A program made the position numbers and the translations under genes. Shown piece by piece: positions 29,480 to 30,140 of a DNA stretch of 64,000 nt. This DNA comes from the human T2T-CHM13v2.0 reference genome, Homo sapiens, in assembly GCF_009914755.1 (NCBI RefSeq), contig NC_060935.1, one strand, 5' to 3'. A model generated the notes under the pieces. The model was not told where the DNA came from and ran no database searches. It worked only from the letters and a program-made list of their open reading frames with translations. The number at the start of each line of letters is the position of its first letter. Position 1 is the first letter of the stretch.

Positions 29480-30140
29480 ATGGTCCTTCTGTTGATCCTG
29501 TCAGTCTTACTTTTGAAAGAAGATGTCCGTGGGAGTGCACAGTCCAGTGAGAGGAGGGTGGTGGCTCACATGCTGGGTGACATCATTATTGGAGCTCTCT
29601 TTTCTGTTCATCACCAGCCTACTGTGGACGAAGTTCATGAGAGGAAGTGTGGGGCAGTCCGTGAACAGTATGGCATTCAGAGAGTGGAGGCCATGCTGCA
29701 TACCCTGGAAAGGATCAATTCAGACCCCACACTCTTGCCCAACATCACACTGGGCTGTGAGATAAGGGATTCCTGCTGGCATTCGGCTGTGGCCCTAGAG
29801 CAGAGCATTGAGTTCATAAGAGATTCCCTCATTTCTTCGGAAGAGGAAGAGGGCTTGGTGTGCTCTGTGGATGGCTCCTCCTCTTCCTTCCGCTCCAAGA
29901 AGCCCATAGTAGGGGTCATTGGGCCTGGTTCCAGTTCTGTAGCCATTCAGGTCCAGAATTTGCTCCAGCTTTTCAACATACCTCAGATTGCTTACTCAGC
30001 AACCATCATGGATCTGAGTGACAAGACTCTGTTCAAATATTTCATGAGGGTTGTGCCTTCAGATGCTCAGCAGGCAAGGTCCATGGTGGACATAGTGAAG
30101 AGGTACAACTGGACCTATGTATCAGCCGTACACACAGAAG
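29480..30140 (+). CDS. GRM5P1: First coding exon (aa 1-220 + 1 nt): signal peptide and N-terminal Venus-flytrap domain of an mGlu5-like class C GPCR
   Basis: Translation [31 protein letters not shown]...[12 protein letters not shown](G) is ~97% identical to recalled mGlu5. ATG at 29480 (AAAATGG), donor AAG|GTGAGT at 30140/30141, no stop or frameshift. Confidence 0.95.

What the first reader, a model, noticed from the sequence alone, without database searches (positions are those of the whole stretch)
29480..30140. 'Pseudogene' copy of mGlu5 with intact promoters, splice sites, signal peptide and open frame: candidate truncated modulator of group I mGluRs
Seen: an open 220-codon exon with canonical splice sites, downstream of two CpG promoters. 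Against recalled human mGlu5 it carries P32L (29573), K51E (29630), R128C (29861), C129S (29864), S176I (30005) and A201S (30080). That is too many changes for an allele of this very conserved gene, so it is best read as the 11p duplicate GRM5P1. Established: class C GPCRs are obligate dimers through this domain, and partial primate duplicates such as SRGAP2C, NOTCH2NL and CHRFAM7A modulate their parent genes. Inference: a co-expressed, flytrap-only product could heterodimerise with mGlu5 or mGlu1 as a decoy. Not wholly new: I recall an 'mGluR5R' cDNA being described, although the locus is generally treated as a pseudogene.
Basis: partly seen in the sequence, partly recalled or inferred. Interest (0 to 1): 0.8.

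Follow-up and report, generated by a model that had tools for sequence, protein, structure and literature searches.

The report
Open-framed partial duplicate of GRM5
This is the already annotated great-ape partial copy of the glutamate receptor gene GRM5 (GRM5P1): its reading frame is still open, but it changes about as fast as unconstrained DNA and could encode only some 58% of the ligand-binding domain, so it is most likely an expressed relic.

Summary
Window 29480-30140 is an open 220-codon exon with AG/GT splice sites.

It is GRM5P1, a colinear segmental duplicate of at least 286 kb covering the GRM5 5' end, with 2.79% substitutions. A gorilla protein model shares two of the six changes.

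It comprises 303 GRM5 codons, a young retroelement-borne exon, and a TRIM48-like tail read in TRIM48's own frame. The stop ends 7 nt before the last junction.

The copy shows no detectable constraint:
- 8 nonsynonymous changes against 10.4 expected under neutrality (P = 0.29).
- Three of them hit invariant residues, including two cysteines.
- A neutral copy would keep an open frame 20-46% of the time.

The product would span only positions 3-205 of the 353-position flytrap profile, so it is not "flytrap-only".

The decoy idea is not excluded. It is unsupported here and, as far as I recall, was already published in 2002.

Verdict: a known locus, most likely a transcribed relic.

The parts
1..64000 (+). 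Part of the GRM5P1 segmental duplicate. The whole window is colinear, in inverted genomic orientation, with the GRM5 5' region (chr11:88933345-88996893).
   Evidence: six colinear BLAST pieces; 62,993 bases aligned, 1,756 mismatches (2.79%), 169 gap events.
11301..12300 (+). CpG-rich stretch A around the first exon (GC 0.56, CpG observed/expected 0.63, 50 CpG).
   Evidence: 48 CpGs shared with the parent, 8 parent-only, 2 copy-only; 97.9% identity.
11770..11957 (+). GRM5P1 exon 1 (RefSeq), the counterpart of GRM5 first exon 88984916-88985122. GT donor kept.
   Evidence: Annotation given; (parent exon maps to window 11751-11957, 6 mismatches in 266 aligned bases including flanks).
14074..14252 (+). 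Counterpart of GRM5's alternative first exon (88982621-88982799). Not annotated as an exon in GRM5P1. GT donor kept.
   Evidence: 239 bases aligned without gaps, 6 mismatches.
14201..14900 (+). CpG-rich stretch B (GC 0.56, CpG observed/expected 0.58, 31 CpG).
28635..28636 (+). Junction where 390 bases of non-repeat parent intron (88967866-88968255) are absent from the copy, about 645 bases upstream of exon 2.
29280..29479 (+). 5' untranslated part of exon 2. It has six upstream ATGs at the same positions as in GRM5 and the same ATG context.
   Evidence: 7 of 200 bases differ from the parent.
29480..30140 (+). Coding part of exon 2: 220 codons plus 1 nt, open. It encodes the N-terminal part of the mGlu5 ligand-binding domain, with 6 residue changes.
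   Evidence: PF01094, 129.1 bits, residues 69-218 = profile 3-126 of 353; mGlu5 structures, E 1e-126.
30141..30142 (+). GT donor of exon 2. The next exon lies 207 kb downstream, outside the window.
61528..62278 (-). 751-base insertion found only in the copy. It looks like a 5'-truncated L1 3' end with its poly-A tail; the family label comes from recalled motifs, not from a tool.
   Evidence: masked repeat at window 61515-62284.

Best explanation
The exon is coding exon 1 of GRM5P1, a non-processed partial duplicate of GRM5.

**How the locus arose.** A segment of at least 286 kb was copied to pericentromeric 11p11. It holds the GRM5 upstream region, both alternative first exons, the first two coding exons and about 16 kb of intron 3. 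The copying happened before the human-gorilla split. The segment landed inside an intron of a TRIM48/49-type gene copy, 73 bases upstream of that gene's 23-nt exon.

**What it makes.** Transcription starts at the copied CpG-rich promoter and runs into the TRIM-type terminal exons, so the result is a fusion transcript. In the human reference a very young composite retroelement insertion supplies an extra 85-nt exon. The tail of that insertion, read in antisense, provides a T-run in front of an AG. The extra exon shifts the frame into the native TRIM48 frame. The outcome is a 369-codon open frame made of 303 mGlu5 codons, 29 new ones and 37 TRIM48-like ones. Its stop ends 7 nt before the last junction.

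**Most likely function.** The protein-coding part has drifted neutrally since the duplication. The predicted product has the signal sequence and the N-terminal 58% of the flytrap profile. It has lost the invariant upper-loop cysteine, one cysteine of the invariant CFCEG motif and an invariant serine. It is probably a poorly folding by-product with no selected function, which makes the locus a transcribed relic, as annotated.

**Shown and inferred.** Shown: the anatomy, the frames, the substitution counts and the CpG retention. Inferred: absence of function, poor folding and the order of the rearrangement events.
For: **Identity and extent**
- homology runs from at most 49699000 to 49984910, against parent 89021915 to 88753079.
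- Introns are retained.

**Frame**
- 369 codons; the stop ends at transcript base 1498 and the last junction follows base 1505.
- All seven exons have AG/GT where expected.
- Exons 5-6 are read in TRIM48's own frame, and exons 5-7 lie in a multi-copy TRIM48/49-type duplicon.
- Exon 4 lies in 1,177 bases that are 99.83% identical to a ROBO1 intron on chr3. A 23-T run and an AG precede it.

**Neutrality**
- 8 nonsynonymous and 7 synonymous differences; pairwise dN/dS 0.34.
- In the simulation of a neutral copy, with the parent keeping only synonymous changes, 10.4 nonsynonymous and 7.6 synonymous differences are expected. P(8 or fewer) = 0.29.
- An omega of 0.3 or less is rejected (P = 0.014).
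- 2 of the 6 exon-2 changes hit invariant positions. Random placement on 81 invariant of 216 positions gives 2.25.
- C129 is Cys in 34 of 34 other group I receptors with a residue there, S176 is Ser in 35 of 35, and C276 is Cys in 9 of 9.
- Open-frame survival under neutrality is 0.20-0.46.

**Other points**
- Truncation: PF01094 positions 3-126 and 130-205 of 353.
- The gorilla model shares L32 and S129 and has two changes of its own. So replacements accumulated on the shared, the human and the gorilla branches.
Against: - The frame is open over 369 codons, the start context and upstream ATGs are unchanged, and the stop position escapes the usual 50-55 nt decay rule.
- The promoter CpG stretches have kept their CpGs as well as the parent's have. 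Inside them 75 CpGs are shared, 9 are parent-only and 6 are copy-only. Outside them the counts are 186, 160 and 155. This fits a promoter that stayed unmethylated and active.
- The raw coding divergence is lower than the window average: 15 of 911 bases against 2.79%, P = 0.017. Constraint on the parent copy alone accounts for this, however.
- An omega of about 0.5 cannot be excluded (P = 0.15).
- In the human lineage a cysteine appeared at 128, next to the lost C129. This could be compensatory, though it is a CpG transition with a chance probability of about 0.135.
- I recall, but could not see, a 2002 paper reporting that the product associates with mGlu5 and mGlu1 in transfected cells.
- The 7 synonymous differences could not be assigned to a lineage because I had no ape DNA.
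Confidence: 0.7

Rival explanations
1. The copy is translated into a truncated N-terminal mGlu5 fragment. In the endoplasmic reticulum the fragment pairs with nascent mGlu5 or mGlu1 through the lobe-1 interface and the loop cysteine, and so lowers or alters receptor output as a decoy or dominant negative.
For: - The frame is open, the start is intact, the N-terminus is identical over residues 1-31, and the stop sits 7 nt before the last junction.
- CpG-rich promoters are retained.
- Exon 2 encodes the part of the domain that holds the upper-loop cysteine. A paper passage states that this is the single conserved inter-subunit cysteine of mGluRs (PMC11045811, passage only).
- A cysteine is present at 128 in the human copy.
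- An omega near 0.5 is not excluded.
- Recalled only: a 2002 cDNA paper on 'mGluR5R'.
Against: - No constraint is detectable.
- Three invariant residues are replaced, including two cysteines.
- Only positions 3-205 of 353 of the domain profile are present, so neither lobe is complete.
- The present 369-codon frame depends on an exon that is at most 0.17% diverged from its source. Any function of this exact product would therefore be very recent.
- Without that exon the frame is 323 codons and its stop ends 60 nt before the last junction.
- The open frame is expected by chance in 20-46% of neutral copies.
Confidence: 0.15
2. The locus acts at the RNA or DNA level only. Its transcript or its copied promoter might compete for factors or microRNAs that regulate GRM5, or act as a long non-coding RNA, with the open frame irrelevant.
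For: - RefSeq classes it as a transcribed pseudogene with a cDNA-based model (annotation).
- The two promoter-side CpG stretches are 97.9% and 98.6% identical to the parent and have kept their CpGs.
- The 5'UTR shares all six upstream ATGs with GRM5.
Against: - Nothing here tests it.
- The 5'UTR of exon 2 is as diverged as neutral DNA (7 of 200 bases).
- No Rfam family was found in the window (0 matches).
- The GRM5 3'UTR, where most microRNA sites would be expected, is not part of the duplicate.
Confidence: 0.07
3. The exon is not a separate locus at all. It would be an allele of GRM5, an assembly artefact, a processed pseudogene, or GRM5 of another primate.
For: None beyond the 98% identity of the exon.
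Against: - Both loci are present in one telomere-to-telomere assembly, 39 Mb apart and in opposite orientation.
- 64 kb of flanking intron and upstream DNA is colinear at 2.79% divergence, so the copy is not processed.
- The downstream end joins TRIM-type sequence.
Confidence: 0.01

Closest known systems
GRM5P1 itself (RefSeq NR_027044.1, 'GRM5 pseudogene 1'; as I recall, described in 2002 as the cDNA 'mGluR5R')
   Same: Same locus, same exons. The annotation places exons 1 and 2 at window 11770-11957 and 29280-30140 (given).
   Different: Nothing differs in identity. This work adds the neutral-rate test, the gorilla comparison, the TRIM48-frame tail, and the origin and youth of exon 4. I could not see the 2002 paper, so some of this may already be in it.
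Functional partial duplicates that act on their parent genes (SRGAP2C, NOTCH2NL, CHRFAM7A; recalled)
   Same: A partial segmental duplicate keeping the promoter and 5' coding exons. The frame is open, the truncated product retains a self-association surface, and it is fused to foreign 3' sequence.
   Different: No sign of constraint, and invariant structural residues are lost. The duplication is shared with gorilla and so is not human-specific. I found no functional evidence in the held literature.
mGlu5 and mGlu1 Venus flytrap domain (PF01094; solved structures such as 3lmk, 6n51, 1ewk)
   Same: Exon 2 is 97% identical to the mGlu5 ligand-binding domain chain over residues 17-220. The Pfam match is far above the cut-off.
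   Different: Only profile positions 3-205 of 353 are encoded. The cysteine-rich domain and the seven-helix domain are absent. C129, S176 and C276 are replaced.
TRIM48 (short TRIM protein at chr11:55.2 Mb)
   Same: The last 37 codons of the GRM5P1 frame are read in the same frame as the C-terminal end of TRIM48. They come from the homologous 23-nt and 98-nt exons. The genomic segment is 94% identical.
   Different: The RING, B-box and coiled-coil exons of the TRIM gene are not part of the transcript. The stop comes two codons earlier than in TRIM48.

Membership tests
GRM5P1: non-processed partial duplicate of GRM5 | A separate locus from GRM5 in the same assembly | tested here: met
   chr11:49753280-49754140(+) at 100% and chr11:88966355-88967215(-) at 98%; gene table.
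GRM5P1: non-processed partial duplicate of GRM5 | Colinear with the parent through introns and upstream DNA | tested here: met
   62,993 of 64,000 window bases aligned in six colinear pieces. Searches cover the flanks.
GRM5P1: non-processed partial duplicate of GRM5 | Lacks the downstream exons of the parent (rest of flytrap, cysteine-rich and seven-helix domains) | tested here: met
   homology ends at 49984910, which is parent 88753079 inside GRM5 intron 3; what follows is TRIM48/49-type sequence. I did not search the genome separately with each later GRM5 exon.
Pseudogene in the strict sense (disabled coding sequence) | A stop, a frameshift or a lost splice site in the retained coding part | tested here: not met
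   303 GRM5-derived codons are open, and AG/GT is kept at exons 2 and 3.
Pseudogene in the strict sense (disabled coding sequence) | Evolves at the neutral rate | tested here: met
   8 nonsynonymous observed against 10.4 expected (P = 0.29); 7 synonymous against 7.6; omega of 0.3 or less rejected, omega 0.5 not rejected.
Complete Venus flytrap (ANF_receptor, PF01094) protein | Match above the Pfam gathering score | tested here: met
   129.1 bits (exon 2) and 45.9 bits (exon 3) against a cut-off of 25.4.
Complete Venus flytrap (ANF_receptor, PF01094) protein | Whole domain present | tested here: not met
   profile positions 3-126 and 130-205 of 353 only.
Complete Venus flytrap (ANF_receptor, PF01094) protein | Conserved upper-loop cysteine and the CFCEG cysteine | tested here: not met
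   column 129 is Cys in 34 of 34 others with a residue and Ser here. Cys in 9 of 9 and Tyr here. A Cys sits at 128 instead.
Functional parent-modulating partial duplicate (SRGAP2C type) | Open frame, own promoter, transcript not an obvious decay target | tested here: met
Functional parent-modulating partial duplicate (SRGAP2C type) | Signature of selection on the copy | tested here: inconclusive
   neutrality is not rejected and weak constraint is not excluded. With no ape DNA I could not polarise the synonymous changes.
Functional parent-modulating partial duplicate (SRGAP2C type) | Expressed and translated in the tissue of the parent; binds the parent protein | not testable with these tools
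   No reads, footprints or peptides were available.

The most novel reading that the evidence does not exclude
The human copy would make a 369-residue chimeric protein that exists only in humans. Its present frame depends on an exon carried in by a retroelement insertion that is at most 0.17% diverged from its source.

The protein would keep the mGlu5 signal sequence and the lobe-1 dimer surface. It would regain a loop cysteine at 128 beside the lost C129 and end in a TRIM48-type tail. In human neurons it would disulfide-link to nascent mGlu5 or mGlu1 and tune how much receptor reaches the surface.

A further and weaker lead: as a near-self N-terminal mGlu5 fragment with 8 changed residues, it could matter as an antigen or as a confounder wherever GRM5 5' probes or N-terminal antibodies are used.
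Probability: 0.1. Interest if true: 0.65.

Novelty: already known. Interest (0 to 1): 0.2.

Why it matters
If the copy were active, it would be a great-ape or human-specific brake on group I metabotropic glutamate signalling. That pathway is central to synaptic plasticity and to fragile X and addiction research.

The evidence here points the other way. The locus behaves like drifting DNA that happens to keep an open frame. It is a useful caution that "open frame plus promoter" is weak evidence for a young duplicate.

There is also a practical point. The first 911 coding bases differ from GRM5 at only 15 positions. Probes, primers, short reads and N-terminal antibodies aimed at the 5' end of GRM5 may therefore cross-detect GRM5P1.

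Tried and rejected
**Readings rejected**
- Processed pseudogene, allele, or artefact. Introns are retained and there are two loci in one assembly.
- Recent gene conversion keeping the exon similar. The 2-kb bins across the window range from 1.9% to 3.4%, and no tract is near zero. The exon's 1.97% lies within that range (P = 0.12).
- A "compensatory" reading of R128C next to C129S. It is a CpG transition that arises in 13.5% of neutral simulations, so I treat it as chance unless tested.

**Literature**
- I saw only search listings.
- "mGluR5R" occurs in 11 papers. I opened only one of these (PMC3072989); there the hit is a table entry for rat mGluR5, not the gene. I did not open the other ten.
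- "GRM5P1" occurs in 2 papers. In PMC10729411 I read passages: a common 1.59-kb deletion in intron 2 is associated with adiposity traits. In PMC12519442 the term lies beyond the held text.
- Three searches found 0 papers: the two title-like phrases and GRM5 + pseudogene + segmental duplication.
- The 2002 mGluR5R paper is recalled only. A look-up by a DOI I remembered found nothing held.
- Supplements were closed. The primer table of PMC9953995 might bear on cross-detection.

**Steps that led nowhere**
- The upstream end of the duplicate was not found. Homology still holds at 49699000. The search with the whole of L019 was swamped by repeats and did not even list its self-match.
- Rfam gave 0 matches in the window.
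- The retroelement labels (SVA-like, L1) come from recalled motifs. No tool names repeat families here.

Full report
**Observation.**
- The stretch 29480-30140 starts with ATG and stays open for 220 codons plus one base, up to a GT donor. An AG precedes the exon start at 29280.
- The stop-to-stop frame (29381-30193, 270 aa) is the longest of the four ORFs of at least 130 aa in the window.
- A whole-genome search with the 861-base exon gives three places: itself, GRM5 exon 2 at chr11:88966355-88967215 on the minus strand (98%), and GRM1 on chr6 (76%).
- Base by base, 20 of 861 positions differ from GRM5, 7 in the 200-base 5'UTR and 13 in the coding part. The 13 are six replacements (P32L, K51E, R128C, C129S, S176I, A201S) and seven silent changes.
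- In the named-source protein search, short GRM5 models from narwhal, chimpanzee, orangutan, gibbon and baboon carry the parent residue at all six positions. So the parent is extremely conserved and the replacements belong to the copy.

**What the locus is.**
- The whole 64-kb window aligns colinearly with the 5' region of GRM5, in inverted genomic orientation. I used the six BLAST pieces of at least 1,500 bases and dropped shorter pieces, including a 738-base repeat match. These give 62,993 aligned bases, 1,756 mismatches (2.79%) and 169 gap events.
- Upstream, the homology still holds at 49699000 (parent 89021915). I did not find that end.
- Downstream, the homology covers the second coding exon (49961155-49961404). 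It is interrupted by a 7.5-kb insertion (49969063-49976572) and ends at 49984910. That point is parent 88753079, about 16 kb into GRM5 intron 3.
- This is therefore a non-processed partial duplicate of at least 286 kb, as RefSeq's GRM5P1 annotation says.
- The 2.79% divergence lies between the human-gorilla and human-orangutan genome divergences as I recall them (about 1.6% and 3%).
- A gorilla model named "metabotropic glutamate receptor 5-like isoform X1" (P0001) shares L32 and S129 with the human copy. It keeps the parent residue at 51, 128, 176 and 201, and has two changes of its own at 23 and 147.
- I infer that the duplication predates the human-gorilla split. I could not see the gorilla DNA.

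- Joining the seven RefSeq exons in a script gives an open frame of 369 codons from the ATG at 29480. All exons have AG/GT where expected.
- Codons 1-303 come from the two GRM5 exons. The second exon adds two more replacements, C276Y and A296V.
- The stop ends at transcript base 1498, and the last junction follows base 1505. By the usual 50-55 nt rule the transcript is not an obvious target of nonsense-mediated decay.
- Exons 5-7 lie in a multi-copy chr11/chr2 duplicon. Its other copies overlap TRIM48, TRIM49D1/D2, TRIM53 pseudogenes and similar genes.
- The duplicate's end lies 73 bases upstream of the counterpart of TRIM48's 23-nt exon. Exons 5-6 are read in TRIM48's own frame, and the stop falls two codons before TRIM48's.
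- Exon 4 (85 nt) lies in 1,177 bases that differ at 2 positions (99.83% identity) from a ROBO1 intron at chr3:78850443-78851619. The exon sequence is exact there.
- In GRM5P1 this piece sits in a composite insertion. By recalled motifs, the insertion consists of an SVA-like element and an antisense L1 3' portion with poly-A tails. A 40-base tandem array is present.
- A run of 23 T followed by AG, read from the antisense tail, precedes exon 4.
- The chr3 site in this assembly has no such element next to it.
- The 85 bases shift the frame from phase 2 into the TRIM48 phase. Without exon 4 the frame is 323 codons, and the stop ends 60 nt before the last junction.
- The present 369-codon frame is therefore very young.

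**Is the coding sequence constrained?**
- Pairwise against GRM5 there are 8 replacement and 7 silent differences on 700 and 209 sites (dN 0.0115, dS 0.0343, ratio 0.34).
- Because the parent hardly changes at the protein level, the ratio for the copy alone is about twice that.
- I simulated 20,000 neutral copies of the 909-base parent stretch. The rates came from the window itself: 1.13% per non-CpG site and 16% per CpG site per lineage. An assumed 60% of substitutions were transitions.
  - The mean is 10.4 replacements, against 8 observed; P(8 or fewer) = 0.29.
  - With silent changes on both lineages, 7.6 silent codon differences are expected, against 7 observed.
- An omega of 0.3 or less is rejected (P = 0.014). 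An omega of 0.5 is not (P = 0.15).
- The raw coding divergence of 15 in 911 bases is below the window average (P = 0.017). Constraint on the parent alone explains this.
- I aligned 35 other group I receptors; the human copy and the gorilla model were left out of the counts. There, 81 of 216 positions are invariant. Two of the six exon-2 replacements hit such positions (C129: 34 of 34 with a residue; S176: 35 of 35). Random placement would give 2.25.
- C276 lies in a CFCEG motif that is conserved in 9 of the 9 sequences that reach it.
- A passage of PMC11045811 states that mGluRs have one conserved cysteine in the upper loop, which can form the single inter-subunit disulfide. Column 129 is the invariant cysteine of that region in my alignment. 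That the two are the same residue is my inference.
- Survival of the open frame is unremarkable. Substitutions alone leave it open in 69% of simulations. Adding the window-wide indel rate gives 20%, and a third of that rate gives 46%.

**What the product could be.**
- Exon 2 matches PF01094 (ANF_receptor) at profile positions 3-126 of 353, and exon 3 at 130-205. Solved mGlu5 ligand-binding-domain chains are about 490 residues long.
- The product would thus hold the signal sequence and about 58% of the flytrap profile, then 66 unrelated residues. It is not a complete flytrap.

**Promoters.**
- Two CpG-rich stretches (11301-12300 and 14201-14900; GC 0.56; observed/expected 0.63 and 0.58) lie at the counterparts of GRM5's two alternative first exons. 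These map to window 11751-11957 and 14074-14252, and both GT donors are kept.
- Inside the stretches 75 CpGs are shared, 9 are parent-only and 6 are copy-only. Outside them the counts are 186, 160 and 155.
- The copy's promoters have therefore been as protected from CpG decay as the parent's. This fits the "transcribed" label.
- The six upstream ATGs and the start context of exon 2 are the same as in GRM5.

**Literature.**
- The held library has nothing on the gene under "mGluR5R" or related phrases, and two papers with "GRM5P1".
- Of these I read passages of one. It reports a common 1.59-kb deletion in intron 2 associated with childhood adiposity measures.
What it reports is not used as evidence here.

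**Verdict.**
The frame and promoters are intact. The product is a truncated, chimeric fragment, the sequence drifts at about the neutral rate, and the idea is not new.
- The most likely reading is a transcribed fusion relic without a selected protein function (0.7).
- The decoy reading remains possible (0.15). It is best tested with ape genomes, human loss-of-function frequencies, paralogue-specific expression data and co-expression assays.

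Noticed in passing
outside the window: chr11:49969063-49976572 (L022 8063 to L023 5572); exon 4 at chr11:49969304-49969388: A 7.5-kb composite retroelement insertion in GRM5P1 intron 3 carries 1,177 bases that are 99.83% identical to a ROBO1 intron (chr3:78850443-78851619). 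It supplies exon 4 of the RefSeq transcript. A 23-T run plus AG from the antisense tail forms the acceptor. The chr3 site in this assembly has no retroelement beside it, so the source copy is absent here. The family labels (SVA-like, L1) are recalled, not given by a tool.
   Followed up: partly
outside the window: chr11:49984911-49988246 (L024 3911-7246): The duplicate ends 73 bases upstream of a TRIM48/49-type 23-nt exon. The last three GRM5P1 exons belong to a duplicon with at least 10 copies at 92-94% identity on chr11 (49.07-50.02, 55.2-55.8 and 89.77-89.92 Mb); more distant relatives (73-88%) lie on chr11 and chr2. The GRM5P1 frame reads two of these exons in TRIM48's own frame.
   Followed up: partly
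window 29861-29866 (codons 128-129): The invariant loop cysteine C129 is lost in both the human copy and the gorilla model. In the human copy alone the neighbouring CGC (Arg128) became TGC (Cys). The chance probability in the neutral simulation is about 0.135.
   Followed up: yes
window 28635/28636: 390 bases of non-repeat GRM5 intron 1 (88967866-88968255) have no counterpart in the copy, about 645 bases upstream of the exon 2 acceptor. Whether this is a deletion in the copy or an insertion in the parent is not resolved.
   Followed up: partly
window 61528-62278: A 751-base insertion present only in the copy. It begins with a T-rich run and continues with what I recognise as an antisense L1 3' end. 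It matches another repeat copy near 88996528-88997261 at 89.8%.
   Followed up: partly
window 11301-12300 and 14201-14900: CpG dinucleotides in the two promoter-side stretches are retained far better than elsewhere. Inside, 75 are shared against 15 lost on either side. Outside, 186 are shared against 315. The copy retains them as well as the parent does.
   Followed up: yes
GRM5P1 intron 2 (published hg19 place 11:49759283-49760872; not mapped to window coordinates): A paper reports a common 1.59-kb deletion (allele frequency about 0.1) in intron 2 of GRM5P1, associated with body mass index and fat mass in children (PMC10729411, passages).
   Followed up: no
window 29280-30140 and exon 3 outside the window: Only 15 of the first 911 coding bases distinguish GRM5P1 from GRM5. 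Assays aimed at the GRM5 5' end could cross-detect the copy. A paper reporting GRM5 expression in Hodgkin lymphoma lists its primers only in a supplement that I could not open (PMC9953995, passages).
   Followed up: no
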